A stretch of 64,000 bases of DNA from an uncultured virus (IMG/VR IMGVR_UViG_3300028886_002149) (taxonomy: Duplodnaviria > Heunggongvirae > Uroviricota > Caudoviricetes), in the IMG/VR virus record IMGVR_UViG_3300028886_002149; one strand, given 5' to 3'. The notes under the pieces are model-generated. The model did not search any database and was not told the DNA's origin. It saw only the letters and a program-made list of their open reading frames with translations. The translations under genes and the position numbers were made by a program. Below are positions 36,260 through 54,794 of the stretch, in pieces (position 1 is the first letter of the stretch; every line of letters begins with the position of its first letter).

Positions 36260-36310
36260 GGGGCATTTCATCAGAAATCTATCTGGTGGGATGCCCCTCT
36301 TTTTTTATTT
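36260..36310 (+). terminator. Terminator of the transfer operon
   Basis: GGGGCATTTCATCAGA-6-TCTGGTGGGATGCCCC then T tract. Confidence 0.8.
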
Positions 36311-36450: not shown

Positions 36451-36729
36451 TTGTGAAAAACCTTGTTGAAGACCGTTTTTTTGGACAGCTAATGTGAATA
36501 ATGGAAGGTGGGAGGTTGTAGGAGATTGATGAAAATAGACATAATGCGTGATGAAGAAATGAATTGTCACACAAATTTTAAATCGAAAATACGAAATTAG
36601 CTTTTGAAAACTCCATCTTTTACTTTCTAAAGATATATCGTGACTTTTGGCATCGCTCATGGTATACTTTTCACTGGGTACGTATTTTTTGTTTTGCGCG
36701 TTTGTGCGCAACTTAGTGAAAGGAAAAAT

Positions 36730-36945
36730 ATGGCGATATCTTATAACGGCTTATGGAAAATGCTAATCGATAAAAACATGTACAAGAAGGATCTTGCAGC
36801 GGAACTAAATATTAGTTCTGCAACTATGGCCAAAATGGGCAAAGGTGAAAATGTTTCTCTTGATGTCCTTCAAAAGATTTGCGAATACATGGATTGTAAT
36901 ATCGGCGACATCATGAGCTTTGAGAAAGACGATAAGAACCAATAG
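36730..36945 (+). CDS. Cro/C1-type HTH regulator heading the defence operon
   Basis: ISYNGLWKMLID, ATMAKMGKGENVSL, CNIGDI. Confidence 0.85.
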   Translation: MAISYNGLWKMLIDKNMYKKDLAAELNISSATMAKMGKGENVSLDVLQKICEYMDCNIGDIMSFEKDDKNQ

Positions 36946-36972
36946 CTTTACTTAACCTATTGATAGGAGTCG

Positions 36973-37764
36973 ATGCCCATGGCAAGCATACAAGATATTA
37001 GAAAGTTTATGAGCACCTGGAAACAGATGACATATAGAAAAGGGCTGGATTATTGCTACTCCATTAAAAATGATCGAGACATATTTGATTTATGTGTAGA
37101 GGTAATTCAGGAGCAGAAATTAGCGGATAAGTTTATGGATGGCAGCTCCGTTCAAAACATTCCGTATATAAAAGAAGATAAGACGAGAGTAATATTCACC
37201 AATATTTTTTGGAACTTGGCAAGTAATTACATTACTCCTGCGTATTATATCGCGTCTATAGTAAATGAATGTGTTAAGAAAGGTGTCGAGAGTAAATCAG
37301 AAATCGTAGGAACTGTAGGCAGGGGATTACGTGCATTTCCTTCATTTTTGAGAGAAATGGATTTGACGTATAAGGTATCAAGTCTTATTCCGGATGCAAC
37401 TGTAGTTAATGGCCCAGAACAAGATGTCGGGGAGCATACAGATATACTGATTCGGATTCATGGTGTTAATTATAGGATGTGGTCATATCAAAACTTTGAT
37501 AGAGGACTCACTAATACTGCTCAAAGGTTTTATGGGAAACGAGGAAATATTCCAGAAGGTATTCATGTTTTATGTCCAATAGATATTGGAAATGAAAGTG
37601 AAATTGAAAAGGTTGATGACTGGTGCTTCTATTCTGATCGATATGTACATTTTATTGTAGATATGATGGAAATAGAAAAACCAGATAGTTATTCGGATTT
37701 ACGCCGACTTGAAGAGTATGCTCTGAAAATATATCTAAAAAAGGCCAATATGGTTTTGCGGTGA
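36973..37764 (+). CDS. Hypothetical protein, possibly restriction-endonuclease-like
   Basis: GRGLRAFPSFLRE helix followed by QD-x4-D (QDVGEHTDIL); weak resemblance to PD-(D/E)XK type II REases. Confidence 0.4.
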   Translation: MPMASIQDIRKFMSTWKQMTYRKGLDYCYSIKNDRDIFDLCVEVIQEQKLADKFMDGSSVQNIPYIKEDKTRVIFTNIFWNLASNYITPAYYIASIVNECVKKGVESKSEIVGTVGRGLRAFPSFLREMDLTYKVSSLIPDATVVNGPEQDVGEHTDILIRIHGVNYRMWSYQNFDRGLTNTAQRFYGKRGNIPEGIHVLCPIDIGNESEIEKVDDWCFYSDRYVHFIVDMMEIEKPDSYSDLRRLEEYALKIYLKKANMVLR

Positions 37765-37769
37765 GAGCA

Positions 37770-38180
37770 ATGAAAAAGACAGAAGAGCAAATCAGTTATA
37801 ACATGAGACGAGTTAAAAGTAAAAACTCGCAGATTGAATTAATGCTCAGGAAAGAGTTATGGAATCGTGGATTGCGTTATCAAAAAAATGTTACCGGGAT
37901 AATGGGAAAACCAGACATAGTCTTCAAAGGAAAGAAGGTGGCAGTTTTTTGTGACAGCGAATTTTTCCATGGATATGACTGGGAAAACAGAAAAAATGAT
38001 ATCAAGTCTAATAGAGTTTTTTGGATTAATAAGATTGAAAGGAATATCCAGAGAGATAAGGAAGTCACGGAAACCTTGGAACAGCAGGGATGGGTGGTTT
38101 TACGGTTTTGGGGTAAGGAAATAAAAAAAGATTTGGTTAAGTGTGCTGATCAGATAGAATCGGTTCTTTTGCAAAGATAG
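37770..38180 (+). CDS. vsr: Very short patch repair endonuclease
   Basis: SYNMRRVKSK, GKPDIV, FCDSEFFHG, FW..KI.RN..RD, GW.VLRFW. Confidence 0.93.
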   Translation: MKKTEEQISYNMRRVKSKNSQIELMLRKELWNRGLRYQKNVTGIMGKPDIVFKGKKVAVFCDSEFFHGYDWENRKNDIKSNRVFWINKIERNIQRDKEVTETLEQQGWVVLRFWGKEIKKDLVKCADQIESVLLQR

Positions 38181-38212
38181 AAGAGTACATAGATGGTAGA
38201 GGGTGGTCAAAA

Positions 38213-41200
38213 ATGTCGGAAGCAAGCAAATTCTTTATTGAAAAAATAGATATTGAAGAAGACATGGGTGTCTCTGCCATCAGGGATACAGATGGCTTTA
38301 CAAAGCGTATTTTCAAAAAATGTCCTCTGATAGGGGATTATGTTATTGGAGAAAAGAACTTAGATACTCTTTACGCTAATGTAAAAAAATATATTGATAT
38401 GCGAATGGATTCTGATAATGCCAGGGTGACGAAGAATTCGTTTAACGTTAATGTACATGAGCAGACGGCCTTAGCCGTTGTTAATTACGCTAAGGAGTGG
38501 AATAGCAATGAGGAAGGAAAATTTACTCGCTTTGTAGCGATGCAATTCGGATATAAAGACGACTATTGGCGAGTATGGAATATTATTACTGAATCGCTGG
38601 AAATTGCATTAAATGCTAATCACAAGTTTTTTATACGCAGAAATGATGACAGACAATTTTATGAGACAGTAATGTCTCACTCAATGGGACCGAAAGGAAG
38701 TTGGATTCCACTTATTGATTTGCTGTTTTCCTTTTACAAAGAGAACTTGGATTGGAAATATGTTCCGAATGATCCTCTTTTTGTACGTTTCGTATATGCG
38801 CTTCAGCGTCATTTCAACAATGAGTCTGCGGATGAGGATAACTTCTTGATTGCTTCAAGAAGCTATAGCTTAAAAGTTGGAATAAGGAGACTTGTTCAGG
38901 AGAGACCGGGATATTGCGTAAAGCTGTTTGAAGATATAGTCAGAAGGCTTGACGAACTATTACAAAATAAAGCTGAGCCTAGCAAAAGGTATGTCTATGC
39001 CATTTTAGATCAATGGTATAAGAGTATGCTTAGCAATGTGAATTCGGTTTCGGAAACACCATCTTCCAGAGAGAATCGACGTAGAAATACGGAAGTCGCT
39101 TTAAGTTATTCGGAAGTGGCTGTTAAGTATACCCTAATTGATGATGAGGTCTATATCAATATACCGGCTATCAGACTGTTAGGCGAGGAGACAGGAGAAG
39201 CAAGAGCGCTACTTTATTTAGGAGATTCGCTTGTTGATGAAATATCGTTAGAGATTGTCGGTAATGAGCTGGGAGAGACCATTTGTGGGATTAGTTATAA
39301 GCTTCCGTTAGAAAAAGTGACATCAGAAGATGTTAAATTGCGTGTTTCAATCATGCGTGGGAACGACTTGATTTATGACTCTGCAAAAAAAATGTGGCGA
39401 TCTGTAATTCTGTTTCTTTACGGGAATGAAGTAAACATAAACAGGATTAATTATTCGGATTATCAACTATTTGCAATTAATAAAAGCGAAATATCAGGAA
39501 GTAATATTGAGTTTAATGAGACAGAATCTTCAAATTTGTTAGATGTATATTTTGACGAAGGATATAAACTTAAGTACTGTGGCAAGACCTTGGTTATGGA
39601 TGCATCTGCTGTTAAGGGGATCAGTGTGTCTGAGCCACAGTGCGTCGATGGAGTAACTTTTGAGATAGACGGCGAGGAGATGCTTGTGGCTTCGGAACAG
39701 CCCGAATTATGTCTATATTTGGAAGATGAAACTGACATTAAGAAATACAGTGTTGCAATAAACGGTAAGGCAGTGGTTGGCACGGACTACTGGAATAAAG
39801 AGGCTAAAAGATATGAGTTTTGTTCCAATGTTACTTCCGAAGAAACGGTTCGGTTTGTGGTAAAAGATCTTTCCTCGGGGAAGAGTATTTTTGATAACGC
39901 ATATTTGTTTGTTGATGGATTTAATTACGCTTTTAACCAAGATTGTTTTGTGACTACCCAAGAATTGGAACAAGGCGAAATAAGGATATCGCTTGCAGAG
40001 GGCGAAGTATCTGAGAGGTTAAATGGGAATGATGCTCATAAGAGGGAATTGGCAGGAGGCATTTTAATTTTCGACATTCCCTTTATTAATTGCTGTATAC
40101 AGAACCTTGATCAGGTTTATTTCGACAGGTATATACGTTATGAAGAGTTGGATGCGAATACAATCCTGCATATAGAAAATAATACAGGAAAAAGAATAGG
40201 CGTATCTATAGGAGATTATTATTTGGAATCGTTCGATAGAGATTTGTTATTGAACGATGTCAAGGAATTATTTAATCCTTATGAAGAAACAATAGTTGAC
40301 TTAAATATTGAGATTGATTCCGTCCATAGAACTATTTTCCAAATCGTATATGCAAACATGTTTGTTGATGCTCCGGTTATGGGAGTAAATGAGAATGTAT
40401 TTTGGTGGGATGGCGGATTAACATATGTTGGCGATTCTGCCGCAAAACTTTCTATTAGCCTGGAGAACGAAAACAAATATTATGAATTTCCACTTGTTTT
40501 GGGTGAACGTTCCATTAATGTGTTTGCAGATGATGAATTTGAAGACGGAGATTATGAATGGGCAATTCTAGAGGATGAGTCTATCATTTGCAGAGGAGTT
40601 CTCTTCTTGGGAGATGAAAGGAAGGCGCGCTTTAAGGACAAAGTAATAAGAATAAGCCGAATAGCCGGTGAGATTGATGATAGAACAAGCGAAGTAAACA
40701 TTAAGGATGTCTATATTGATCAGATTAAGTTCGTGGAAACAACATATGTTGAAACAGAGGAGGACATATTTGATGTTTATACAGGGTGTATGTACTGGAA
40801 TAGGTATGACGGAAAAAAATACTATTCATTTAAGTACACGGACAAAAAGTATAAGGTGAATCCTGTAAAAATCATATATATCAGCAAAAAATATTTAAGA
40901 ATAGTTAATGTAGACGACGAAGGCATTTACTGCTTTAATAACAGATTTTCGGCTAACCCGGGAATAGAAATAACAGACTATGAGCCAACCAGAAATTCCA
41001 AGGATTACAATGATATTTTGTTTTATCTGTATTCTGTGGAAAGCCTGAAAAAGGAAAGTACCTCTGAACATGCAATAGGGAGTGTTAAAGAGGTGGATGT
41101 ACCAAAAACGACAGATGTTCCCAAGACCGGTCGTGTAATTGTTGTTCATAACCAGACAATCAAAAAGGAGGTAAGTATTCCGGAAGAGGGTCTGTTTGAC

Positions 41201-43033
41201 GGAGTAAAAGACGTATCACAAAATACAGTGATTGAGGCCGATGCATCAGAGCGTATTCTGGTTAACGCCGGACCTGGTACAGGAAAGACCTGGACGCTAA
41301 TTGAAAAAATCGTATATATGGTAAAGAATCTGGAGATTGAAGCAGAAACGATTCAGGTCCTTTGCTTTTCTCGTGCTGCAGTTGAAGTAATTAGAAATAG
41401 AATTGATCAGGAAATAGAAAGAGATAATGATAATCTTGATATTAAGAGGATAGATGTTAGAACCTTTGACTCGTTTGCGACGCAGTTGCTTTATTGGGTC
41501 AGAGAGAGTGATTATGATTTAATCCCTGAAAACTACCAGTTGGAGTCGTTGAATTATGATGAAAGAATACAGAAATTCATAGAAGTAGTAAAAGCAGAAC
41601 CGGATTTGATTTCCGAATGTAAGCATTTGGTAGTGGATGAAGTTCAGGATCTTGTGTTAACAAGAGCCGAGATGGTGTTAACACTTATAAAAAGCCTCCC
41701 TGATGAATGTGGTGTTACATTGCTGGGGGATGCATGTCAGGCAATTTATGATTACCAGTTGGGTGACGGAACGAAATCACTTGAGTTTTACAGAGAAGTA
41801 AAGAAGTTCGGAACTTTTAGTTTTTACTCTTTTTCTGAAAACCATCGTCAGACGTCTGAATTAATGGCATATTCGGATGGATACAGAAAGCATATATTGG
41901 ATGAGGACATAGAAGGCTGTCAGGATTATCTTGAGTCATTAACAGACTTAATTCCTGCTTGCAAAATAAAGAATTTGGAGCAGATAAACAAAGCAGCATT
42001 GGATTTTTATTTTGATGAAGGAAGTATAGCGATTTTGACTAGAAATAATGCTCAAGCGCTAAGCCTTTCAGGCGCATTAAGGGAACATGGTGTTGAGCAT
42101 TGTATGCAGAGACGATTAAATGATTTGTCTCTTTGTTCGTGGATAGCTTTGGTCTTAAATAATCTTGGGAAGAAAACATATAGTTATACAGAGTTTGCGG
42201 ATGCGTTAGAGGAAGTAAACGCTGAGGGAATAGATGAGATTTGGGATTTTGTAAGTGATGGTTCACCGGATAGAAGAATAGATACAAAGGCTATTCTTAC
42301 AAAAATAAAAGAAGCAGGAACTTGTCGCTATTTATATGTTAATGCAAAACAAAGTAGGCTTACGGTTTCAACTATTCATAGGAGTAAAGGTAGAGAGTAC
42401 GATTCTGTGATAATTCTGGATGAATTGTTACAGGATGAGACGAAAGACCTGGAAGAACATCGTGTTAAGTATGTAGCGCTTAGCAGAGCACGAAGCAGCG
42501 TGTTTAGATCTTCTATGAAGAAACTGTTTTTTAGAACTTTGGAAGATCGTAGATGCTTTAGCGTCGGGACGGTATTTAAGAATAATAACAAGTATTTAAA
42601 GAACTTTGAAGTTGGACTAAAAGATGACCTGAATGTTGACTATTTTGCTTCTGCAGATGCATTGCAAGAATGGATACGTGAGAATGCTGATGAACTGGTA
42701 GGAAAAGAGGTATATCTATCCAGACAGGAGCAAATAGTAGATGGCTGTGTTATTTATGATGTTGTTCTTGAGGAGGACAATACAATAGTAGGCCAGACGA
42801 GCAGAGATTTTTCTTGGGATTTGAGTCAAGCAATTAGACAAATTAAGGGATTGTCAAACAGAGTTGAACTTTATGATTATTTATATCCGGCTGAGTTTCA
42901 TGGGATATATATAACAGATATCGCGTCAGAGATAGCCCTGATGAGGGGAAATGAACAGGGCATAGAAGATTTCGGAGGCTTAGCGACCTGGAATACCTTA
43001 CAAATCGAAGGATATGCTAAGGCATCATACTAA
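38213..43033 (+). CDS. 1606-aa protein: about 1000-aa uncharacterised N-terminus + UvrD-like SF1 helicase
   Basis: NAGPGTGKT, VVDEVQD, LGDACQAIY, NHRQ, STIHRSKGREYD, YVALSRA in the C-terminal part. Confidence 0.8.
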   Translation: MSEASKFFIEKIDIEEDMGVSAIRDTDGFTKRIFKKCPLIGDYVIGEKNLDTLYANVKKYIDMRMDSDNARVTKNSFNVNVHEQTALAVVNYAKEWNSNEEGKFTRFVAMQFGYKDDYWRVWNIITESLEIALNANHKFFIRRNDDRQFYETVMSHSMGPKGSWIPLIDLLFSFYKENLDWKYVPNDPLFVRFVYALQRHFNNESADEDNFLIASRSYSLKVGIRRLVQERPGYCVKLFEDIVRRLDELLQNKAEPSKRYVYAILDQWYKSMLSNVNSVSETPSSRENRRRNTEVALSYSEVAVKYTLIDDEVYINIPAIRLLGEETGEARALLYLGDSLVDEISLEIVGNELGETICGISYKLPLEKVTSEDVKLRVSIMRGNDLIYDSAKKMWRSVILFLYGNEVNINRINYSDYQLFAINKSEISGSNIEFNETESSNLLDVYFDEGYKLKYCGKTLVMDASAVKGISVSEPQCVDGVTFEIDGEEMLVASEQPELCLYLEDETDIKKYSVAINGKAVVGTDYWNKEAKRYEFCSNVTSEETVRFVVKDLSSGKSIFDNAYLFVDGFNYAFNQDCFVTTQELEQGEIRISLAEGEVSERLNGNDAHKRELAGGILIFDIPFINCCIQNLDQVYFDRYIRYEELDANTILHIENNTGKRIGVSIGDYYLESFDRDLLLNDVKELFNPYEETIVDLNIEIDSVHRTIFQIVYANMFVDAPVMGVNENVFWWDGGLTYVGDSAAKLSISLENENKYYEFPLVLGERSINVFADDEFEDGDYEWAILEDESIICRGVLFLGDERKARFKDKVIRISRIAGEIDDRTSEVNIKDVYIDQIKFVETTYVETEEDIFDVYTGCMYWNRYDGKKYYSFKYTDKKYKVNPVKIIYISKKYLRIVNVDDEGIYCFNNRFSANPGIEITDYEPTRNSKDYNDILFYLYSVESLKKESTSEHAIGSVKEVDVPKTTDVPKTGRVIVVHNQTIKKEVSIPEEGLFDGVKDVSQNTVIEADASERILVNAGPGTGKTWTLIEKIVYMVKNLEIEAETIQVLCFSRAAVEVIRNRIDQEIERDNDNLDIKRIDVRTFDSFATQLLYWVRESDYDLIPENYQLESLNYDERIQKFIEVVKAEPDLISECKHLVVDEVQDLVLTRAEMVLTLIKSLPDECGVTLLGDACQAIYDYQLGDGTKSLEFYREVKKFGTFSFYSFSENHRQTSELMAYSDGYRKHILDEDIEGCQDYLESLTDLIPACKIKNLEQINKAALDFYFDEGSIAILTRNNAQALSLSGALREHGVEHCMQRRLNDLSLCSWIALVLNNLGKKTYSYTEFADALEEVNAEGIDEIWDFVSDGSPDRRIDTKAILTKIKEAGTCRYLYVNAKQSRLTVSTIHRSKGREYDSVIILDELLQDETKDLEEHRVKYVALSRARSSVFRSSMKKLFFRTLEDRRCFSVGTVFKNNNKYLKNFEVGLKDDLNVDYFASADALQEWIRENADELVGKEVYLSRQEQIVDGCVIYDVVLEEDNTIVGQTSRDFSWDLSQAIRQIKGLSNRVELYDYLYPAEFHGIYITDIASEIALMRGNEQGIEDFGGLATWNTLQIEGYAKASY

Positions 43034-43045
43034 CGGAGGCCATAT

Positions 43046-46237: not shown

Positions 46238-46250
46238 GAGGGATTTTTAT

Positions 46251-48104
46251 ATGAATTTTGGAAAAAGTGGAGATGAAAAAGCAAAAAAAATCCCGATTGG
46301 TACGATAAGAAAGACACAGTTGATTTCAACTTTTGCTACAGGCGCGATAGCTGAAATGCCTGAATACACAGTTATTATGGCTGCATCAAACTACTGGTCG
46401 GGGAAAAAACTATATGAACCAAGTCTCCAAAGGTTGTTGGGTATGAACTATTTCATGGAACCAAAGTTTACCGAAAGCCAAAGTCCTTTGGGAAACTCTG
46501 ATATGCCTGCATTTCGTTTTCCACAAATGCATTTTTGCCCTAAGTGTGGAAAGTTGGATAATTATAAAAGCTTTGGAGATCCCAAAAATAAAAAGTGTGC
46601 AATATGCAATAGGGAAATCGTTCCTTCCAGATTTATTGCTGCATGTATAAACGGACACTTAGAGGATTTTCCGTTTGAGTGGTGGGTTCACTACGGAAAT
46701 GTGATGAGTTGTACAGATCCGACAAATCATCACAAATTATCAATTGAATTTAAAGACAACACAGGTGGATTGGCCAGCATTGTAATTAAGTGCAAGGAAT
46801 GTGGCAAAGAACGTTCTATGGAAGGCTGTATGAGTCCGAAAGCGCTGAACGGCTATAGGTGCAGAGGAAAAAGACCGTGGATAAGCATGAAAGAAGAAAG
46901 TAACGATCCGATACAATGCTCAGCACCGATGAGAGCATTGCAAAGAGGTGCTTCGAACGCCTATTACAGCATCACTCAAAGCGCCTTAACTATTCCGCCG
47001 TGGAGCCATAAAATCCAAGAGGAGATAGAGAGCAAATGGAGCGAAATTCAGACTGGATTTGAAGGAGGCATGGATGATAATTTCCTCATGCAATTAATTA
47101 ATATTTTCTTTAAAGACACCATAAGTGCAGGAAAGTATACTGCCTCTGATTATATGGGCGCAATAAAAAAGCGTAGAGGTCTTGAGCAGGACGACGACTC
47201 AGATTTTACAGAGCAGAAGATGTTCGAAGATGAGTATAGGGCATTGTGTGCCGGTTATGGAGATGATGAGTCAGAGGAAACAGAGCAATTTCGAGCAGAA
47301 ATAACAGACATTTCTCCTTTTCTACAGGACTATTTTGATGAAGTGGTTCTTGTAAAGAGACTGCGAGAGGTGATGGCATTTCGTGGATTTAGAAGACTAA
47401 CACCGTCTCTTCCGAATGAGAACGAGGATGCTTTTAAAGGAGTTGATCCAAGCAGAGAGATTATGCCACCTTGGGATAAGCCCCTAAAGTGGTTACCTGC
47501 GATTGAAATGCGCGGTGAAGGAATTTTTGTTGTTCTAAATAAAGACAAGTTGGAAACGTGGGAAAGAGAGAACGCCGGAAGATACGAAGAAATGAAAAAG
47601 AGACTTGGTAGTCTCAATATTGGAAAGGGTATGTTTTCACCGCGATATGTGTTGCTACATACATTGTCTCATCTTCTGATCAGACAGTTAACGATAGATT
47701 GCGGATATCAGGAGGCAGCACTTAAAGAAAGGATTTATAGTACTTATCCGGAAAACGGTAATACTGAGATGGCAGGTATTTTGATTTATACATCTTCTTC
47801 CGATTCTGATGGTAGCCTCGGCGGATTGGTAAGGCAGGGAGAAAGTGATTTGCTTGAAGAAACCATGAGAAACCTTCTTGAGGAGGCATCCTGGTGCTCA
47901 TCGGATCCGTTATGCATAGAATCAAAGTCACAAGGTTTTAATTCTTTGAATTATGCAGCGTGCCATGCGTGCACATTATTACCCGAAACCAGTTGCGAAG
48001 CCAGAAATTGTTTGCTGGATAGGGCTGCCGTTGTAGGAAAACCGGATGATAGAAATATAGGATATTTCGGAGAACTGTTGCTTGGAGGAATAGATAATGT
48101 CTAA
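46251..48104 (+). CDS. drmB: DISARM DrmB-like DUF1998 protein
   Basis: LLHTLSHLLI, ERIY, CSSDPLC, AACHAC.LLPETSCE..N.LLDR. Confidence 0.9.
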   Translation: MNFGKSGDEKAKKIPIGTIRKTQLISTFATGAIAEMPEYTVIMAASNYWSGKKLYEPSLQRLLGMNYFMEPKFTESQSPLGNSDMPAFRFPQMHFCPKCGKLDNYKSFGDPKNKKCAICNREIVPSRFIAACINGHLEDFPFEWWVHYGNVMSCTDPTNHHKLSIEFKDNTGGLASIVIKCKECGKERSMEGCMSPKALNGYRCRGKRPWISMKEESNDPIQCSAPMRALQRGASNAYYSITQSALTIPPWSHKIQEEIESKWSEIQTGFEGGMDDNFLMQLINIFFKDTISAGKYTASDYMGAIKKRRGLEQDDDSDFTEQKMFEDEYRALCAGYGDDESEETEQFRAEITDISPFLQDYFDEVVLVKRLREVMAFRGFRRLTPSLPNENEDAFKGVDPSREIMPPWDKPLKWLPAIEMRGEGIFVVLNKDKLETWERENAGRYEEMKKRLGSLNIGKGMFSPRYVLLHTLSHLLIRQLTIDCGYQEAALKERIYSTYPENGNTEMAGILIYTSSSDSDGSLGGLVRQGESDLLEETMRNLLEEASWCSSDPLCIESKSQGFNSLNYAACHACTLLPETSCEARNCLLDRAAVVGKPDDRNIGYFGELLLGGIDNV

Positions 48105-49833
48105 GATGATTCCGCCGGTTATTGGCGATGAGGAAGCACGAAAAAGTCCAGCTGAAGCAAGTGTGTTTGGCTACTTAAAAGGTATGACGTGGGGCAATGC
48201 AATCGCTTTATATTCATTACCGCTGAAAGAACATATTCGAAATAGTTTCGGCGAAATAGACTTTGTTGTAATTTGTGATGAGGGCGTGCTGTGCATTGAG
48301 GTAAAGGGTGGTACTGTGGAGAGACGTGAAGGGCAGTGGGGATATACACCTCAAAGAGGCCCTAAGAAAGGTGTTACTACTTGGAAACCGCAAGGACCAT
48401 ACACTCAAGCGCAGGGAAATATGAAATCATTGCGTCAGTATTTGGAGAAACACTTTAAGGCTGATGATGCGATACTACAATGTAAAATGGCTTGTTGCGT
48501 TATTACTCCCGACTGTATTATTAAGGCGGATGATGATACCGAGATTATTCCGGAAATCACTTTCAGTGCGGGAATGAAGGAAAGCGATTTGCCTAAAGTT
48601 TTTGAACGAAGCTTTAAGTACTGGTGCGTAGAAAAACATTACGCGGGACAGGAAGGACTAAACTCTAAAGCTAAAGAGCGATTGGCTACGTTTCTTAGAG
48701 GAGACTTCAATTTTGTCCCCGCTCTGTCTGTTATTTTGGATAGATCCGAGGAGCAATTATTATCCACAACAGAAGAGCAATATAGAATAATTGAAAGTAT
48801 GAGTATTAATGACCGCATGATGATTGAAGGCGGGGCAGGAACCGGTAAAACTATTTTGGCAACAGAGCAATGTAGAAAAGCTTCTATCAAAGGAGAGAAG
48901 GTTCTTTATCTGTGCTTTAACCACGCTATTGCGTCATATATAAGAGAAGTTTTTTCTTCGGAGGGAGAAAGCACGGATGTTTATACCTTTCACGAGATTC
49001 TAATGAAGTTATGCAATGAAAAGTATGTTGGTGACGAAAAGTCGGATTATTTTAAAAATGAGTTGCCAAACAAATTTCTAAAGAACATTGCGAGTTCGAT
49101 GAGTGAAGTAGCTAAATATGACCGTATCATCATTGATGAAGGTCAAGATTTGATGAATATGAATGCTTATTTGTGCATAAATGAGCTAATAAAAGGTGGA
49201 TGGGATAATGGTAGGTGGACAATCTATTATGATCCTCATCAAAACTTATTTGTTGACAATGATGAGTTTCAGGAAATATGGGAAACCCTGAAAAAGTCAT
49301 CGTTTGTTTTTCCTTTGACAATTAACTGCAGAAATACACGGCAAATAGCAGAAGGAAACTATGCGGTTACGCATGTGTATAAAGCAACAAATCCTCGTGC
49401 GGAGGGTGAGGAAATAGCATATAAAACATATAAAAGTAAAAGTGATGAACGAAATCAGCTGTTTGAAATGATTAGATGGCTTAGAAGTAATGGGATAAGC
49501 AAAAAAGATATTGTAATCTTGTCATATTACAGACTTGATAATCCGGAAAGTTGCCTGTTTGAGACAGATATCCCTGTAGACATTGGTAGAGTAAAGTTTA
49601 ACGTACTCTCTGATTTCGGAAGTTGTAAGGATATACGATATTACACAATTCAAGCATTTAAAGGACTTGAGGCTAGGGCTGTAATCATGATAGATGTGGA
49701 CAGCTTTTCAGATGACAGTAAGCGGTTTTTGAATTATGTCGGTATGTCCAGAGCGAAAACTTATTTAGCTATGTTTTACGATGCCGGTTTGTATCAGGAG
49801 AGACAGCAGCGTCTTCTTGAATCACTTATATAA
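48097..49833 (+). CDS. NERD nuclease + SF1 helicase fusion
   Basis: EIDFV..IEVKGG; GGAGTGKT, IIDEGQD, NCRNT, FKGLE, YVGMSRA. Confidence 0.88.
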   Translation: MSKMIPPVIGDEEARKSPAEASVFGYLKGMTWGNAIALYSLPLKEHIRNSFGEIDFVVICDEGVLCIEVKGGTVERREGQWGYTPQRGPKKGVTTWKPQGPYTQAQGNMKSLRQYLEKHFKADDAILQCKMACCVITPDCIIKADDDTEIIPEITFSAGMKESDLPKVFERSFKYWCVEKHYAGQEGLNSKAKERLATFLRGDFNFVPALSVILDRSEEQLLSTTEEQYRIIESMSINDRMMIEGGAGTGKTILATEQCRKASIKGEKVLYLCFNHAIASYIREVFSSEGESTDVYTFHEILMKLCNEKYVGDEKSDYFKNELPNKFLKNIASSMSEVAKYDRIIIDEGQDLMNMNAYLCINELIKGGWDNGRWTIYYDPHQNLFVDNDEFQEIWETLKKSSFVFPLTINCRNTRQIAEGNYAVTHVYKATNPRAEGEEIAYKTYKSKSDERNQLFEMIRWLRSNGISKKDIVILSYYRLDNPESCLFETDIPVDIGRVKFNVLSDFGSCKDIRYYTIQAFKGLEARAVIMIDVDSFSDDSKRFLNYVGMSRAKTYLAMFYDAGLYQERQQRLLESLI

Positions 49834-49859
49834 TTTCATAAAACAGAGGGTTGAATGAT

Positions 49860-50063
49860 ATGTTTTGCGGAGATTGCATTCTTGAACTTCTGAGGCAAAA
49901 TAACGGAGGTTCAACCAGAGGAGAACTAAGGCAGTGCCTTTTGGAAAGAGGATATGGTACAGAGGCTATTAGGCAAGCTTACATAAGGCTCGAACAATCC
50001 GGAAAAATAACCCTGATTGGTTCCGGAAAATCAAAAAATCAGATTGTAAAGTTGAAAGGATGA
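49860..50063 (+). CDS. Small winged-helix-like protein
   Basis: ILELL...STRGELR..L...GY....IRQA..RLEQSGKI; fills gap before MTase. Confidence 0.5.
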   Translation: MFCGDCILELLRQNNGGSTRGELRQCLLERGYGTEAIRQAYIRLEQSGKITLIGSGKSKNQIVKLKG

Positions 50064-50069
50064 AAAGAA

Positions 50070-51071
50070 ATGTATAAAGCTATTGATTTATTTGCCGGAA
50101 TCGGAGGCATTCGGATGGGATTCGACAATGCATTCGGGAAGGGTATTAGTACGGTTTTTGTGAGCGAGTGGGACGAATTTGCTCAGAAGACATATAAGGC
50201 GAATTATAAAGATAAATTCGAAATTGCCGGAGATATTACACAGATAAAAGAAGAGGATATTCCTTCTTTTGATATTTGTTTAGCCGGTTTCCCTTGCCAA
50301 GCCTTTTCACTTGCAGGAAAGCACGGTGGATTCAATGATGACTATCACGGAAGATGCAGGGGAACTTTGTTTCTGGATGTGGCCAGAATATGCGAATACC
50401 ATAAGCCGAAGGTTATTTTCTGCGAAAACGTTAAGGGACTTGTTATTCATGATAAAGGCAGAACATTTAAGGTAATTACGGAAACGTTTGAGAGTTTGGG
50501 ATATAAGGTGTTTTCCAAGGTCCTCAATTCAAAGGATTTCGGTGTCCCTCAGAACCGAGAGAGAATATATATCGTTTGCTTTAGAAATGATATAGCACCC
50601 GAGACATTTGAATTCCCTGAAGGAACCGATTCTACTAAGACAATCAGGGATATTTTGGATGATGCACCTGTTTCATCCAAGTACTATTTGTCTGATGTAT
50701 ATATGGACACATTGAGGAAACATAGAGCCCGTCATGAGTCTAAGGGTAACGGATTCGGATATGAAGTCAGAGATCTTGATGATATAGCTGGGGCGATAGT
50801 CTGTGGCGGTATGGGAAGAGAACGAAATCTTATTGTGGATCATCGAGAACATAGTATGGTGCCGGTAACTCACATCAAGGGCGAAATAAATAAAGAAGAT
50901 ATTCGCAAGATGACTCCGAGAGAATGGGCTCGTTTGCAAGGATTTCCGGATAGCTATAAGTTGGAACTGGCTGATACACATTTGTACAAGCAGTTTGGCA
51001 ATAGTGTAACTGTGAATGTGATAGAAGCAATAGCCAGAAAGATAAAGGAGGAATTGGATGCGAGCAAATAA
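50070..51071 (+). CDS. dcm: DNA (cytosine-5)-methyltransferase
   Basis: DLFAGIGG, GFPCQ, ENV, QNRERIY, KQFGNSV. Confidence 0.95.
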   Translation: MYKAIDLFAGIGGIRMGFDNAFGKGISTVFVSEWDEFAQKTYKANYKDKFEIAGDITQIKEEDIPSFDICLAGFPCQAFSLAGKHGGFNDDYHGRCRGTLFLDVARICEYHKPKVIFCENVKGLVIHDKGRTFKVITETFESLGYKVFSKVLNSKDFGVPQNRERIYIVCFRNDIAPETFEFPEGTDSTKTIRDILDDAPVSSKYYLSDVYMDTLRKHRARHESKGNGFGYEVRDLDDIAGAIVCGGMGRERNLIVDHREHSMVPVTHIKGEINKEDIRKMTPREWARLQGFPDSYKLELADTHLYKQFGNSVTVNVIEAIARKIKEELDASK

Positions 51072-52131
51072 GGGAGAATGGTCCGAATTATATGTGTTGT
51101 TAAGGTTATTAGCATATGGGCGGTTGTACTCAGCTGGTGAGAATACTGAAAAATTGGAAGACGTATACTTCCCAATTATGAGAGTCCTGAGAAATGAAGG
51201 GGATTCTCTTCGGTATGAATATAAATCAAAAGATGATAAAAGCATTGAATTGTTTATTAATTCAGATAAAATTACCTCCATTGAAAGATCCGTGTTAGCC
51301 AGATATGCAGATTTGATACTGGATGGTATTAGAAAAGGCGGTAAGAAAGGCGCGTTTGAAATCGAAGACAGTAAAGAAGCAATGAAAACGCTTCATACAA
51401 GTAAGATAAAAGCCCCTTCGACAGATAAGACAGATATTAAGATGGAAATCCACGATAATAAAACGGGATATTCATCTGTTGTAGGGTATTCAATAAAGTC
51501 GGATTTAGGGATGCCCCCAACTTTATTAAATGCTTCAAATGCCACTAATTTTGTCTATGACGTAGTGGGGGATATAAGCGATCAGGATATAGCCAGAATT
51601 AACGCTATTGAGACCGATAAAAAAATCATCGATCGAATGAGTGAGATTGATAAAATTGGAAAATTGAAATACCGGGCCATGAAAAATAGTGTGTTTGAAG
51701 GTAATGTAATGCTCATTGACAGTCTTATGGATGAGATTTTAGGAAATCTCTTGATGATATCTTTTCAGACTGGAAACCTTCAATGTTCGGAATTGATAAC
51801 AGAGCTGGAGTGGAGAGATCCGTTAGGGTACGGACGAGAGGGTATATACAGGTACAAGTTTAAGAAGTTTTTGTGTGCTATAGCGCTGGGAATGCTTCCT
51901 TCAAAAGTATGGGACGGAAGAGATGAAGCTAATGGTGGCTATATAATTGTTAAAACCAATGGAGACATAGTTGCATACCACTTGTACAACAGAGATGCGT
52001 TTGAAACCTACTTGTTGAATAACACTTCATTTGAGCGTGCTTCAACAAGCCGTTATGGATATGCAGAGTTGTATCGTGACGAGGATGGAAAGGCATGCGT
52101 TGACTTGAATTTACAGATACGGTTTAAGTAG
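51058..52131 (+). CDS. HpaII-family type II restriction endonuclease
   Basis: NKGEWSELY start, KTDI, SIKS.LG..PTLLNAS..TNF, LNLQIRF end; overlaps MTase. Confidence 0.8.
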   Translation: MRANKGEWSELYVLLRLLAYGRLYSAGENTEKLEDVYFPIMRVLRNEGDSLRYEYKSKDDKSIELFINSDKITSIERSVLARYADLILDGIRKGGKKGAFEIEDSKEAMKTLHTSKIKAPSTDKTDIKMEIHDNKTGYSSVVGYSIKSDLGMPPTLLNASNATNFVYDVVGDISDQDIARINAIETDKKIIDRMSEIDKIGKLKYRAMKNSVFEGNVMLIDSLMDEILGNLLMISFQTGNLQCSELITELEWRDPLGYGREGIYRYKFKKFLCAIALGMLPSKVWDGRDEANGGYIIVKTNGDIVAYHLYNRDAFETYLLNNTSFERASTSRYGYAELYRDEDGKACVDLNLQIRFK

Positions 52132-52161
52132 CGATTTGAAAGAAATAGATTGGTTGGAGGC

Positions 52162-53178
52162 ATGATGTCAAAAAGGAAGATGGTGCAAAGCAATCTTGTA
52201 AAAAACTCTATTGCAGCTTACTTTGCAGCTATTGAAATTCATAATAAACCTAATATCGCCTACCGGTATGAAACCGTAACTTTGCTTATTCAAAATGCAT
52301 GGGAGCTGGTTCTTAAAGCGTATATCCGAAAGAACATTAAGCATAGAAGCATTTATGAAAATGGCAACCATACTATAAGTTTTGATAAAGCTATAGGGTT
52401 TGTTGCAGAGGACATTAATGGAAAAAAGCCGAATAGTTTTGAGGCAGTAAAAAGAAATCTTGAGGAGATTGAAATCTATAGAAATGGAATAACGCACTTT
52501 TATTGTGATGAGTTGGAACCATATATTTTTATGCTTGTGGCTCGATCAGCGTTGAATTATGTGGATTTCATAAAGACATACTTTGGAAAAGACATTATGG
52601 CAGAGGACGGACTGTTTATTATGCCATTAGGCTTTAAACTTCCGTTCCTTCCACAAGATTTTTTATCGGGCAATTTTGCTAAATATGCGAGTTCCCCGGA
52701 AAGCATGGAGTTCATAAAAAGTATCGTTAAATCTATTAAGGATCTCAAAGATGCTGGTATTGAGGATTCCATCGTGCTTGGATTTGATATATATCTTGAA
52801 AGTGTTAAAAAGGCCACGAATAGTGATTTACTTGCAGCCATTACGTCCATTGAAGAGGCTGACACAACGTTTGGAAAGATTACAAATGCAAGATTTACAG
52901 ATGATCCGAATGCTAAAGCCTATAACATGACGGATGATGAGTTTAGAAAGATATATAAATACTCATTTTATGACTTGCGTGATTGGTGCCGCGAACATAT
53001 CGCAGGATTTAAGCAATCTAAGGATTTTTACAGGATAAAAAAGAGTATAGAAGAAGATCCTAATTGCGCGTATGAACGAAAGCTTGATAATCAGAGTGCA
53101 AAATCGCCTACAAAAACATTTTATACCGAGCGTGCATTAGAAAGAATGAAAGAACTGTATCCAGTTCAGGAAGAATAG
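52162..53178 (+). CDS. DUF3644-like protein with HEPN-type motif
   Basis: AAIEIHNKP...YR.E, NAWEL.LKA, YRNGITH (R-x4-H). Confidence 0.7.
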   Translation: MMSKRKMVQSNLVKNSIAAYFAAIEIHNKPNIAYRYETVTLLIQNAWELVLKAYIRKNIKHRSIYENGNHTISFDKAIGFVAEDINGKKPNSFEAVKRNLEEIEIYRNGITHFYCDELEPYIFMLVARSALNYVDFIKTYFGKDIMAEDGLFIMPLGFKLPFLPQDFLSGNFAKYASSPESMEFIKSIVKSIKDLKDAGIEDSIVLGFDIYLESVKKATNSDLLAAITSIEEADTTFGKITNARFTDDPNAKAYNMTDDEFRKIYKYSFYDLRDWCREHIAGFKQSKDFYRIKKSIEEDPNCAYERKLDNQSAKSPTKTFYTERALERMKELYPVQEE

Positions 53179-53181
53179 CTT

Positions 53182-53307: not shown

Positions 53308-53318
53308 AAGGGACGAAT

Positions 53319-54533: not shown

Positions 54534-54553
54534 GATGAAGGAGCTCTGAATCA

Positions 54554-54793: not shown

Positions 54794-54794
54794 A

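What the first reader, a model, noticed from the sequence alone, without database searches (positions are those of the whole stretch)
36730..53178. Non-canonical DISARM-like system: giant UvrD protein-DrmA-DrmB-NERD helicase, without DrmC, nested in a Vsr/5mC MTase/HpaII-type R-M locus
Seen: a tightly coupled co-directional run of HTH, REase-like ORF, vsr, 1606-aa SF1 helicase, drmA, drmB, NERD-SF1 helicase, small wHTH, C5-MTase, HpaII-family REase and DUF3644. Established: DISARM core is drmA-drmB-drmC (PLD nuclease), with drmD/drmMI (class I) or drmE/drmMII (class II). Here I see no HKD/PLD gene and no SNF2 DrmD. A NERD nuclease-helicase occupies the drmC position and a huge UvrD-type protein sits upstream of drmA. 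Inference: a distinct three-helicase DISARM subtype that shares its 5mC self-mark with a type II REase, carried on an ICE.
Basis: partly seen in the sequence, partly recalled or inferred. Interest (0 to 1): 0.85.

Follow-up and report, generated by a model that had tools for sequence, protein, structure and literature searches.

The report
UvrD–DrmAB–NERD helicase DISARM variant
A gut-bacterium mobile element carries an anti-phage gene cluster of the DISARM family in which the usual nuclease is replaced by a nuclease-helicase and an extra giant helicase is added, a recurrent but untested layout that widens what counts as DISARM.

Summary
All eleven genes lie where stated, co-directional and 0-32 nt apart or overlapping. 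DrmA and DrmB pass NCBI's curated DISARM cut-offs. No PLD/HKD or SNF2 gene was found in the window.

The layout recurs. Of 80 genome loci picked by likeness to the UvrD part, 75 have drmA directly downstream and 72 have drmB. A NERD-helicase follows drmB in 20 of 68 loci with room. In 20 DrmA loci from 401 sampled Bacillota genomes, a NERD-helicase is present in 11 and DrmC in 2. UvrD-linked DrmA proteins form their own clades.

The module upstream of UvrD is swappable:
- a fused 950-aa helical plus Ig-like array (here);
- separate Hsp70-like and coiled-coil genes;
- a Tiamat-like ATPase-helicase in actinomycetes. A 2026 preprint has noted this last neighbourhood.

A C5-methyltransferase, often with Vsr, is frequently nearby (40 of 80 loci), while the restriction enzyme beside it varies.

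Verdict: a new variant of a known kind, not experimentally tested. Interest 0.6.

The parts
36260..36297 (+). Terminator-like hairpin after the ICE relaxase gene; marks the left edge of the cargo block
   Evidence: 16-pair stem plus T run. The contig of run X3 starts at 36434.
36640..36668 (+). Promoter-like site (GTGACT-17-TATACT with TG) ahead of the HTH gene
   Evidence: This is a consensus match only, and the region holds fewer such sites than its shuffles.
36731..36945 (+). Cro/C1-type HTH regulator and first gene of the array (ORF open from GTG 36640; ATG at 36731)
   Evidence: PF13443 3.5e-21; sequence read. Homologues (43-71% identity) lead related arrays in L002, L007, L008, L011 and in 11 metagenome loci.
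36973..37764 (+). ORF263, unnamed family; possible PD-(D/E)xK restriction-endonuclease-like protein tied to the HpaII-type R-M
37761..38180 (+). Vsr very-short-patch-repair endonuclease; start overlaps the ORF263 stop by 4 nt
   Evidence: TIGR00632 128 bits, cut-off 97.85; PF03852 3.6e-22. Vsr lies directly upstream of the giant gene in L005 and in 12 metagenome loci.
38213..41060 (+). Giant protein, N-terminal module (residues ~1-950): helical domain 1-290, chain of Ig-like beta-sandwiches ~300-800, beta-rich domain 810-945
41061..43033 (+). Giant protein, disordered linker (946-1000), UvrD/GajB-like SF1 helicase core (~1000-1440) and conserved C-terminal domain (1440-1606)
   Evidence: PF00580, PF13245, PF13361; PADLOC GajB 2e-27. 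Walker A G1020-T1026, DEVQD 1142-1146 and HR.KG.E 1389-1395 are invariant in 20 homologues.
43046..46237 (+). DrmA, SF2 (YprA-like) helicase; 12 nt after the giant gene
   Evidence: NF038325 955.1 bits (cut-off 950); PADLOC DrmA 1.2e-233. GGGKT and DELH motifs read.
46251..48104 (+). DrmB (DUF1998/MZB); the ORF is open from TTG 46206, and the likely start is ATG 46251
   Evidence: NF038324 487.5 bits (cut-off 240); PF09369 5.4e-08. Cysteine clusters read. The L001 orthologue is 617 aa.
48097..49833 (+). NERD (PD-(D/E)xK) nuclease domain fused to an SF1 helicase; start overlaps the drmB stop by 8 nt
   Evidence: PF08378 8.2e-11; PADLOC RTasNERD-Hel 7.7e-43. E53, D55, E68, K70, Walker A 245-252 and DE.QD 347-351 are invariant in 23 DrmAB-linked homologues.
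49851..50063 (+).
   Evidence: No hit. Sequence. In L001 the NERD-helicase and MTase genes are 24 nt apart.
50070..51071 (+). C5-cytosine DNA methyltransferase (type II / DrmMII-like)
   Evidence: PF00145 3.5e-99; PADLOC MTase_II 8.4e-119 and DrmMII 4.3e-83.
51058..52131 (+). HpaII-family type II restriction endonuclease; overlaps the MTase gene by 14 nt
   Evidence: PF09561 4.6e-110, covering 1-359 of 359 profile positions; PADLOC REase_II 2.6e-76.
52150..53178 (+). DUF3644 / PADLOC candidate PDC-S19; a neighbour, probably a separate unit
   Evidence: The pig-gut contig of run X6 follows the window from 36656 to 52252 and then diverges.
53319..54793 (+). ORF404 and ORF79, unknown function; last + strand genes of the cargo, ending at a hairpin at 54795-54821
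   Evidence: The X3 contig ends at 55116.

Best explanation
The block at about 36.7-52.1 kb is one composite defence unit carried as ICE cargo.

Its core is a DISARM-family module of a class not yet defined. It comprises an SF1 UvrD/GajB-like helicase, the split YprA-type helicase DrmA/DrmB, and a NERD-nuclease/SF1-helicase that takes the place of the PLD nuclease DrmC. In this window the UvrD-like helicase is fused to a 950-aa helical plus Ig-like module.

The core is embedded in a 5-methylcytosine module: an HTH regulator, a C5-methyltransferase and Vsr. In this lineage the module also serves an HpaII-type restriction enzyme and ORF263.

Proposed working (inferred):
1. The methyltransferase marks host and ICE DNA, probably at CCGG. 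Vsr repairs the T:G mismatches that 5mC deamination creates.
2. The restriction enzyme cuts unmarked incoming duplex DNA.
3. DrmAB loads on single-stranded or 5'-tailed DNA of unmarked invaders, as shown for class 1 DrmAB.
4. The UvrD-like motor and the NERD-helicase then unwind and cut that DNA.
5. The N-terminal Ig-like array acts as a sensor or scaffold. In sister lineages the same position is filled by an Hsp70-like/coiled-coil pair or by a Tiamat-like ATPase-helicase.

Shown here: gene content, intact motifs, conserved order, and clades of DrmA that follow the partner genes. Inferred: every biochemical step, the methylation motif, and that the parts act as one system.
For: DrmA and DrmB are bona fide (PADLOC).

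Synteny of the UvrD-like gene with drmA-drmB:
- 75 of 80 genome loci have drmA downstream and 72 have drmB. They span Lachnospiraceae, Oscillospiraceae, Selenomonadales, Synergistes, many actinomycetes, Chloroflexota and Alcaligenaceae.
- Of 13 intact non-self metagenome loci with a full-length giant homologue, 13 have drmA. Twelve have drmB plus the NERD-helicase, and the thirteenth ends after drmA.

NERD-helicase and DrmC:
- A NERD-helicase lies 9-40 nt after drmB in 19 loci and 1121 nt after it in L001. That makes 20 of 68 loci with room.
- In 20 DrmA loci from 401 sampled Bacillota genomes, 11 hold a NERD-helicase and 2 hold DrmC.
- Nuclease and ATPase residues are invariant in 23 NERD-helicases and in 20 giant homologues.

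DrmA tree of 61 rows:
- Firmicutes UvrD-linked clade: 22 rows, SH-aLRT 98.
- Actinomycete UvrD-linked clade: 21 rows, SH-aLRT 100.
- DrmE-like-linked clade: 11 rows, SH-aLRT 96.

Methylation module: a C5-MTase is in 40 and Vsr in 29 of the 80 loci, although the flanks reach only about 5 kb past drmB. The neighbouring nuclease varies: HpaII, EcoRII, LlaJI, McrBC-like, AspBHI/Mrr-like, or none.

Window anatomy: tight spacing, and the scan found no strong intrinsic terminator-like site on the + strand inside the array.

Other samples: the block 36434-55116 is one contig with 89 differences in a bovine-gut run. The stretch 36656-52252 is one contig in a pig-gut run.

Literature (passages read): DrmC is dispensable and often missing, and DrmAB binds 5'-overhang ssDNA (PMC9142583). 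DISARM also blocks conjugation (10.1101/2021.12.28.474362).
Against: - No experiment exists for any member of this class.
- The NERD-helicase is missing from 48 of 68 loci with room. In five Bacillota loci it lies upstream of drmA, so it may be an exchangeable or independent unit. NERD-helicases are also listed in PADLOC with other systems (RT-associated, Nhi, AbiO).
- The 80 loci were chosen by likeness to the UvrD part and are the best 80 of 139 confirmed from a capped list of 600. They are not a census.
- Many of the metagenome loci are near-copies of one element.
- Relations between the DrmA clades are unresolved. L028, L061 and L111 sit on long branches.
- The methyltransferase scores higher with a type II MTase model than with DrmMII and has its own cognate REase. 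It may belong to the R-M pair alone.
- RNA-library contigs over the genes are short and could be DNA carry-over.
Confidence: 0.65

Rival explanations
1. This is a defence island of independent neighbours: an HpaII-type R-M with Vsr, a minimal DrmAB pair, a stand-alone NERD-helicase defence gene, an orphan GajB-like helicase and DUF3644. They would be packed together on ICE cargo without working as one system.
For: - The NERD-helicase is present in only 20 of 68 related loci, and its position varies.
- PADLOC places similar NERD-helicases and UvrD helicases in other systems.
- DUF3644 is dropped in the pig-gut variant.
- ORF263 and the REase occur without the cassette in L133.
- Restriction partners differ between loci.
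Against: - UvrD-drmA adjacency in 75 of 80 loci across phyla, with gaps of 12-673 nt.
- DrmA clades follow the partner class.
- No GajA was found among the 12 ORFs scanned.
- Overlapping or 6-32 nt junctions throughout.
- The HTH leader gene is conserved at the head of the related arrays.
Confidence: 0.2
2. This is an ordinary class 2 DISARM in which the giant protein is a diverged DrmE and DrmC has simply been lost. No new class would be needed.
For: - The giant gene sits in the drmE position, upstream of drmA.
- The DrmA best matches the short-form model NF038325.
- A C5-MTase is present.
- drmE is only 'on occasion' present, and drmC is dispensable (10.1101/2021.12.28.474362).
Against: - No PADLOC DrmE hit among those listed for the giant (best 25 of 37 shown) or for its first 1000 residues.
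- Profile-profile comparison of the DrmE-like family (A3) with the giant family (A1) gives probability 0.2%.
- The giant has a complete UvrD core, which DrmE-like proteins did not show.
- DrmE-like-linked DrmA proteins form a separate clade.
Confidence: 0.05
3. The helicases serve DNA repair or ICE maintenance rather than defence. They could be an MrfA-like repair system coupled to Vsr, or factors that process transferred single-stranded DNA.
For: - YprA-family helicases include repair enzymes (PMC12458937, section 3).
- Vsr is a repair nuclease.
- The genes lie beside relaxase and topoisomerase genes.
Against: - DrmA and DrmB pass the DISARM-specific curated models, not repair models.
- The block has foreign G+C, carries R-M genes, and differs between copies of the ICE backbone.
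- Relatives lie next to McrBC-like, EcoRII, LlaJI, Thoeris ThsA-like and other defence genes.
Confidence: 0.05

Closest known systems
DISARM class 2 (drmE-drmA-drmB-drmC-drmMII; Bacillus paralicheniformis system). Definition as summarised in 10.1101/2021.12.28.474362 (passages read); the original Ofir et al. paper is not held.
   Same: DrmA and DrmB pass curated models. A C5-cytosine methyltransferase is present. There is a large accessory gene directly upstream of drmA and a nuclease-bearing gene directly after drmB.
   Different: No PLD DrmC; a NERD-SF1 helicase is in its place. The upstream gene is a UvrD-type helicase with an Ig-like N-terminal module, unrelated to the DrmE-like family. 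Vsr and a cognate type II REase are built into the array.
'Type III-C' Tiamat-like neighbourhood (Tiamat-like ATPase with C-terminal helicase + cytosine MTase + GajB + DrmA + DrmB), bioRxiv 10.64898/2026.09.30.754977 (passages read)
   Same: A UvrD/GajB-like helicase directly upstream of drmA-drmB, with a C5-MTase nearby. I recovered this arrangement in the actinomycete loci L027-L080.
   Different: The window has no Tiamat-like GHL ATPase: no TmtA hit for residues 1-1000. Its UvrD protein instead carries a fused helical plus Ig-like module. A NERD-helicase follows drmB, and the DrmA belongs to a different clade.
Druantia type III (DruH sensor + DruE YprA-like helicase-nuclease), PMC13192584 (passages read)
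   Same: A ~950-1150-aa protein or module with an N-terminal helical region and several Ig-like domains sits directly upstream of a YprA-family helicase. Stand-alone homologues of the giant's module precede DruE-like helicases.
   Different: No detectable sequence relation to DruH. The helicase here is the split DrmA/DrmB type. The module is fused to a UvrD helicase.
[quoted passage not shown]
   Same: A UvrD-family SF1 helicase serves as accessory motor of a multi-gene defence system. In ARMADA II it accompanies a YprA-like helicase.
   Different: No GajA. There is no RelE-like domain, no BrxHII/PglX partners, and the position is upstream rather than at the end of the operon.
HpaII-type type II restriction-modification with Vsr
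   Same: A full-length RE_HpaII family enzyme overlaps a C5-MTase gene, and Vsr is in the same array. The compact version is seen in L133.
   Different: In this window five genes (giant, drmA, drmB, NERD-helicase, ORF70) separate vsr from the MTase. The specificity (CCGG) is assumed from family membership only.

Membership tests
DISARM (core definition) | drmA: helicase-domain protein of the DrmA family | tested here: met
   NF038325 DISARM_DrmAS, 955.1 bits against a cut-off of 950. PADLOC DrmA 1.2e-233.
DISARM (core definition) | drmB: DUF1998/MZB protein encoded next to drmA | tested here: met
   NF038324, 487.5 bits against 240. PF09369. It lies 13 nt after drmA.
DISARM (core definition) | drmC: PLD (HKD) nuclease | tested here: not met
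   No PLD or DrmC hit among the ORFs scanned. No full HKD motif in six frames. DrmC model PDLC02586 found nothing in 5 genomes with related loci, but that search had no positive control.
DISARM class 2 | drmMII: C5-cytosine methyltransferase belonging to the system | tested here: inconclusive
   A C5-MTase is present (PF00145 3.5e-99). PADLOC DrmMII scores 4.3e-83, but a type II MTase model scores better at 8.4e-119, and a cognate REase overlaps the gene.
DISARM class 2 | drmE | tested here: not met
   No DrmE hit for the N-terminal 1000 residues or among the listed hits of the whole protein (only 25 of 37 shown). hhalign of the DrmE-like family against the giant family gives probability 0.2%.
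DISARM class 1 | drmD (SNF2 helicase) and drmMI (N6-adenine MTase) | tested here: not met
   No SNF2 or N6-MTase hit in the window ORFs scanned.
Tiamat-like Type III-C neighbourhood | Tiamat-like GHL ATPase with C-terminal helicase next to GajB-DrmA-DrmB | tested here: not met
   No TmtA hit for the window protein. The actinomycete relative L027 gives TmtA 2.9e-45.
Druantia type III | DruH (YjiT family) protein | tested here: inconclusive
   No DruH or YjiT hit. PDLC00050 finds nothing in G001 at E <= 1. hhalign probability 0.1-0.2%. The architecture and the gene position of stand-alone homologues are alike. The solved DruH structure 9tud could not be compared.
Druantia type III | DruE: single-chain YprA-like helicase with C-terminal nuclease | tested here: not met
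   The helicase here is split into DrmA and DrmB, and both pass the DISARM models.
Gabija | GajA (OLD-family ATPase-nuclease) beside GajB | tested here: not met
   No GajA hit among the 12 ORFs of the block.
Type II R-M, HpaII family | RE_HpaII endonuclease with adjacent C5-MTase | tested here: met
   PF09561 4.6e-110 over the whole profile. The genes overlap by 14 nt.
Type II R-M, HpaII family | CCGG recognition and C5 methylation of that site | not testable with these tools
   Needs a methylome or cleavage assay. CCGG is not avoided in the window: 238 observed against 203 expected.
Integrative conjugative element | Relaxase, coupling protein, T4SS ATPase and integrase on one element | tested here: met
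   PF03432 relaxase, PF02534 VirD4-like, TraG/VirB4-like P-loop, and PF00589 + PF02920 Tn916-type integrase. The element's ends were not mapped.

The most novel reading that the evidence does not exclude
There may be a third DISARM class built as sensor, then UvrD-like helicase, then DrmA/DrmB, with or without a NERD-helicase. The sensor would be a swappable cassette.

In this window the sensor is a DruH-like protein-recognition module (helical region plus Ig-like array) fused to the UvrD motor. The system would then be a natural chimera of Druantia-III-type sensing and DISARM-type DNA processing. Sister lineages would use an Hsp70-like/coiled-coil pair or a Tiamat-like GHL ATPase-helicase for the same job. 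The NERD-helicase, not a PLD enzyme, would be the usual nuclease of DrmAB systems in Bacillota.
Probability: 0.35. Interest if true: 0.8.

Novelty: new variant of a known kind. Interest (0 to 1): 0.6.

Why it matters
DISARM is still defined by the triplet drmA-drmB-drmC, yet DrmC is dispensable and how the invader's DNA is destroyed is unknown.

- **A candidate nuclease.** In the Bacillota genomes sampled here most DrmAB loci lack DrmC and carry a NERD-nuclease helicase instead. A UvrD-type helicase is a fixed partner in several phyla. Together they name concrete candidates for the missing nuclease and second motor.
- **A way to study sensing.** Three unrelated modules occupy the slot upstream of UvrD. 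One resembles the proposed phage sensor of Druantia III. This offers a natural experiment on how one DNA-processing core is coupled to different triggers.
- **Practical relevance.** The unit rides on an ICE found nearly unchanged in cattle and pig gut metagenomes from several studies. It is therefore relevant to gene flow and phage resistance in gut communities.
- **Annotation.** Annotation tools that require DrmC would miss or mislabel these systems.

Tried and rejected
- A genome-contig scan with DrmA alone gave 63 pattern matches and none confirmed. I repeated it with the giant-family alignment.
- The scan's earlier notes held nothing.
- No whole genome is held for the window, so genome-wide absence of DrmC could not be tested for the source organism. 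In five genomes with related loci the DrmC model found nothing, but its control also rang nowhere, so this is weak.
- **Giant N-terminus.**
  - No Pfam, PADLOC, NCBIfam or PHROGs family. The only hits were weak LmuA/LmuB DUF4297 matches (E 0.0013 and 0.0023), which I discount.
  - Fold searches gave only generic Ig/FnIII matches.
  - The helical domain 1-290 and the beta domain 810-945 were barely tested and were not folded alone.
- **DruH homology.**
  - HMM and profile-profile tests were negative, although the best hhalign path is collinear over 504 columns.
  - The profile of the module family found nothing in PDB sequences at E <= 0.1.
  - DruH entry 9tud is in the sequence file but never appeared in the structure searches. 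I cannot tell whether it is in that library.
- **Stand-alone module homologues.** L153 is not followed by a helicase, which is a counter-example. L150 is cut by its contig end.
- **Cargo ends.** No repeats of 12 nt or more are shared by the two cargo ends.
- **CCGG avoidance.** None seen.
- **RNA libraries.** Runs X17 and X20 gave short contigs over the giant, drmA, drmB, NERD-helicase and MTase genes. The tool warns these may be DNA, so I do not count them as expression.
- **Not run or not possible.**
  - Complex prediction was not run, because no single pair under 1000 residues had a good prior.
  - The original DISARM paper could not be read.
  - bioRxiv supplements of the Tiamat preprint are closed and may list the Type III-C loci.

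Full report
**1. What is in the window**

The + strand between 36.6 and 54.8 kb carries a dense, co-directional run of genes. Family scans (Pfam, PADLOC, NCBIfam) give the following:
- A Cro/C1-type HTH, 36731-36945.
- ORF263, 36973-37764, with no family.
- Vsr, 37761-38180.
- A 1606-aa protein, 38213-43033. Residues ~1000-1440 are a UvrD/GajB-type SF1 helicase, and the first 1000 residues match nothing.
- DrmA, 43046-46237: NF038325, 955.1 bits against a curated cut-off of 950.
- DrmB, 46251-48104: NF038324, 487.5 bits against 240.
- A NERD-nuclease/SF1-helicase fusion, 48097-49833.
- ORF70, 49851-50063, with no family.
- A C5-cytosine methyltransferase, 50070-51071.
- A full-length HpaII-family endonuclease, 51058-52131.
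- DUF3644/PDC-S19, 52150-53178.

Junctions from the HTH gene to DUF3644 run from a 14-nt overlap to a 32-nt gap.

None of the 45 window ORFs scanned with Pfam has a PLD or SNF2 domain. No full HKD motif exists in any frame.

The surroundings are an integrative conjugative element:
- ParA/ParB;
- a VirD4-like coupling protein and a VirB4-like ATPase;
- a TrbL-like protein, a cell-wall hydrolase and an ArdC-like protein;
- a topoisomerase;
- a relaxase ending at 36254;
- a Tn916-type integrase at 58783-60012.

The cargo is lower in G+C than the backbone. Only the 'wHTH' label of ORF70 remains unverified.

**2. Is the arrangement conserved?**

The giant protein has 103 relatives in the 5.8-billion-protein collection. 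Sixty-four of them cover at least 94% of its length at 33-99% identity.

A scan of one genome per species with an alignment of this family returned 139 confirmed relatives from a capped list of 600 pattern matches. The best 80 loci were kept. Annotating them with the window's proteins gave these counts:
- drmA follows the UvrD-type gene in 75 of 80 loci, with gaps of 12-673 nt.
- Two of the five exceptions are cut by contig ends and one ends 1.6 kb later. L025 and L026 truly lack drmA.
- drmB follows in 72 loci.
- A NERD-helicase follows drmB in 20 of the 68 loci that have at least 1.8 kb of room.

The hosts span Lachnospiraceae, Oscillospiraceae, Selenomonadales, Synergistes, dozens of actinomycetes, Chloroflexota, Acidimicrobiia and an Alcaligenaceae MAG. 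These loci were selected by the UvrD part, so they show linkage, not frequency.

A metagenome scan with the N-terminal module alone found 28 loci, one of which is the window's own contig. The other 27 break down as follows:
- 13 hold an intact full-length giant homologue. All 13 are followed by drmA. Twelve are also followed by drmB and the NERD-helicase, and the thirteenth contig ends after drmA.
- 3 frameshift-rich loci keep the same order.
- 2 are cut inside the giant gene.
- 9 hold only the N-terminal module.

Many of the 13 are near-copies of one element.

**3. An unbiased sample**

The DrmA model NF038325 was searched in 401 Bacillota genomes. One of these, G001, is the centre of the sample and so was not drawn at random. 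Twenty-one genomes matched at E <= 1e-20.

I fetched 19 regions and added L001, giving 20 DrmA loci:

| Arrangement | Loci | Count |
|---|---|---|
| UvrD, DrmA, DrmB (then NERD-helicase) | L001, L114, L115, L116 (L116 cut after drmA) | 4 |
| ~860-aa protein, NERD-helicase, DrmA, DrmB | L113, L120, L122, L124, L125 | 5 |
| ~875-aa protein, DrmA, DrmB | L117, L118, L119, L121 | 4 |
| Same, plus a NERD-helicase after drmB | L123 | 1 |
| Distant DrmAB-like pair followed by a NERD-helicase | L127, L129 | 2 |
| DrmMII, DrmD, type III R-M, DrmA, DrmB, DrmC | L111 | 1 |
| DrmE-like (weak), DrmAB-like, DrmC | L128 | 1 |
| Contig ends at drmA | L112 | 1 |
| Other partners | L126 | 1 |

A NERD-helicase is thus present in 11 of 20 loci and DrmC in 2 of 20.

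The label 'DrmE-like' for the ~860-875-aa proteins is tentative. Only L117 and L128 gave weak PADLOC DrmE hits (2.2e-6 and 9.7e-6). The rest align with them at 15-21% identity.

**4. DrmA phylogeny**

The maximum-likelihood tree has 61 DrmA rows. Thirty-one actinomycete rows were left out for size, L002 is a duplicate of L003, and rows under 900 aa were dropped. It shows:
- all Firmicutes/Synergistes UvrD-linked DrmA in one clade (22 rows, SH-aLRT 98);
- actinomycete UvrD-linked DrmA in another (21 rows, 100);
- DrmE-like-linked DrmA in a third (11 rows, 96).

L111, L028 and L061 sit on long, unplaced branches, and the order of the clades is unresolved.

The giant-fusion forms nest inside the clade whose other members have separate Hsp70-like genes. 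The fusion is therefore derived.

**5. The swappable upstream module**

Three versions occupy the position upstream of the UvrD core.
- **(A) The fused N-terminal module.** It occurs in the window, L001, L002/L003, L007 and the metagenome set.
- **(B) Three separate genes.** These are a ~430-aa coiled-coil protein, a ~488-aa Hsp70-like ATPase (PF00012, 1e-34 to 1e-40) and a ~735-981-aa UvrD protein. They occur in L008, L012, L014, L019, L021, L022, L028 and L114.
- **(C) Actinomycetes.** A ~1550-1640-aa protein with a Tiamat-like N-terminus (PADLOC TmtA 2.9e-45) and an SF2 helicase C-terminus is followed by a ~620-aa UvrD protein.

Version C is the 'Type III-C' neighbourhood described in a Tiamat preprint as Tiamat-like helicase + cytosine MTase + GajB + DrmA + DrmB (10.64898/2026.09.30.754977, passages).

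**6. The N-terminal module of the giant protein**

AlphaFold2 with a 46-row alignment (pLDDT 81.4, pTM 0.52) predicts:
- a helical domain, residues 1-290;
- a chain of Ig-like beta-sandwiches, ~300-800;
- a beta-rich domain, 810-945;
- a disordered linker.

Structure searches give only generic Ig/FnIII matches.

A full HMMER pass over 1.84 billion representatives finds the module in 310 proteins, 99 of them at E <= 1e-30. It occurs fused to UvrD, alone (~910-1040 aa), or behind other N-terminal domains. Of 16 representatives scanned:
- 7 carry tandem RNA-polymerase-alpha-CTD-like domains;
- 1 carries a BrxC/BrxD ATPase domain;
- 1 has a weak DUF4332 match;
- 7 have nothing.

I looked at six loci with stand-alone homologues.
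- In four, the module gene is directly followed by a YprA-like helicase with an MZB domain. This was Pfam-checked in L152, L154 and L155 and judged by ORF size in L157.
- L153 has no such helicase.
- L150 is cut by its contig end.

The L154 helicase is 29-31% identical to bona fide DruE and has no BLASTP match to the window's DrmA or DrmB. In two true Druantia III loci, DruH is likewise directly followed by DruE.

DruH is described as an N-terminal helical region plus three Ig-like domains and as the likely phage-protein sensor (PMC13192584, passages).

Sequence tests of a DruH relation are negative:
- no PADLOC or Pfam hit;
- hhalign probability 0.1-0.2%.

The solved DruH structure (9tud) never surfaced in the structure searches, and I cannot tell whether it is in that library. 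A DruH-like role is therefore a hypothesis based on architecture and gene position, not on shown homology.

**7. The methylation and restriction frame**

A C5-MTase lies within the fetched flanks in 40 of 80 loci and Vsr in 29. The flanks reach only about 5 kb past drmB.

The nuclease next to the MTase differs from locus to locus:

| Neighbouring nuclease | Loci |
|---|---|
| HpaII family | window, L001, L135 |
| EcoRII | L012, L019, L146 |
| LlaJI | L021 |
| McrB/McrC-like pair | L002, L007 |
| AspBHI/Mrr-like | L077 |
| None (MTase and Vsr directly after the NERD-helicase) | L008, L009, L011, L013 |

Vsr sits directly upstream of the giant gene in the window, in L005 and in 12 metagenome loci.

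A Lachnospiraceae-family genome without the cassette has a compact locus of Vsr, C5-MTase (80% identical), HpaII-REase (45%) and an ORF263-like gene (36%).

**8. Occurrence in other samples**

Near-identical DNA is held by runs of 14 studies, mostly cattle and pig gut.
- One bovine-gut contig covers 36434-55116 with 89 differences.
- One pig-gut contig covers 36656-52252 with 169 differences and then diverges.

The unit from the HTH gene to the REase therefore travels together, and DUF3644 does not always come with it. Short contigs in two RNA libraries lie on several of the genes, but they may be DNA.

**9. Literature**

Definition of DISARM as read in 10.1101/2021.12.28.474362 (passages):
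- a core of drmA, drmB and drmC;
- class 1 adds drmD and drmMI;
- class 2 adds drmMII and, on occasion, drmE.

The other sources say the following:
- DrmC is dispensable and often missing (PMC9142583, passages).
- Its held supplements list at least 3,487 'DISARM-like helicase' rows without subclasses. They contain no 'NERD', 'UvrD' or 'Hsp70' (one file was cut when stored).
- The McrBC survey's 'DISARM-like' cassette has SNF2 and PglX partners, that is, the later ARMADA (PMC11090510, passages).

Searches for a third DISARM class returned nothing relevant. Searches combining DISARM/DrmA/DrmB with NERD or UvrD, and NERD with DUF1998, returned only the papers above.

I therefore find no description of the NERD-helicase as a DISARM partner, of the Hsp70-like version, or of the fused Ig-like version. 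The closed supplements of the Tiamat preprint and the original DISARM paper (not held) could bear on this.

**10. Verdict**

This is a recurrent DISARM-family variant with a UvrD-type partner and, often, a NERD-helicase in place of DrmC. It is embedded in a 5mC module and carried by an ICE.
- The shared methyl mark and the joint action of the parts are inferred.
- Part of the picture, the GajB-DrmAB-C5-MTase neighbourhood, is already in a preprint.
- I rate it a new variant of a known kind, with interest 0.6.
- The bolder reading, that swappable sensors are coupled to a UvrD-DrmAB core and that one of them is DruH-like, is worth testing.

Noticed in passing
window 38213-41060; proteins P0168-P0309; loci L150-L157, L160: The ~950-aa helical plus Ig-like module is a widespread unnamed family: 310 representatives. 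It occurs alone, behind tandem RNAP-alpha-CTD-like domains, or behind a BrxC/BrxD ATPase. Stand-alone copies often sit directly upstream of DruE-like helicases next to type I R-M or GmrSD genes.
   Followed up: partly
L008, L012, L014, L019, L021, L022, L028, L114-L116: A conserved gene pair lies upstream of the DrmA-linked UvrD gene: a ~430-aa coiled-coil protein and a ~488-aa Hsp70-like ATPase. In L114-L116 a further ~1015-aa protein of no known family precedes them.
   Followed up: partly
window 3407-9240: A second candidate defence cluster in low-G+C DNA: a UvrD + PD-(D/E)xK (AddA-like) 949-aa protein, a 474-aa protein with a DEDDh exonuclease domain (PADLOC PDC-S48 9.7e-16), a 189-aa ORF and a WYL-domain regulator.
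   Followed up: no
window 9460-16824 and L001 68-8535: BspA-type LRR proteins, a DUF2201 (VWA-like/metallopeptidase) protein and a MoxR-like AAA ATPase recur in the window. They also lie directly upstream of the giant gene in L001, where no T4SS genes intervene. The same cargo genes are arranged differently in the two elements.
   Followed up: no
window 60925-63841: A second ParA/ParB/DUF6017 set begins right after the Tn916-type integrase. This suggests two conjugative elements in tandem.
   Followed up: no
L146 11306-12214: The giant gene of this human-gut metagenome locus is interrupted by an rve-family transposase gene (an IS insertion) between residues ~433 and 442. drmA, drmB and the NERD-helicase stay intact.
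   Followed up: no
L002/L007 5360-9952; L138 4924-9958: A C5-MTase is followed by a McrB-like AAA protein (PADLOC PDC-M26A 3.8e-58) and a DUF2357 + PD-(D/E)xK McrC-like protein, then Vsr and the giant gene. A type IV-like nuclease pair next to a methyltransferase is an odd combination.
   Followed up: no
P0165: A 210-aa metagenome protein joins the first quarter of ORF263 (94% identical) to an RE_HpaII domain. It could be an assembly chimera or a recombinant between the two R-M-linked genes.
   Followed up: no
window 30574-31809: An ArdC-like anti-restriction protein (ArdC N-terminal domain plus metallopeptidase) lies on the same ICE that carries the restriction and DISARM-like cargo.
   Followed up: no
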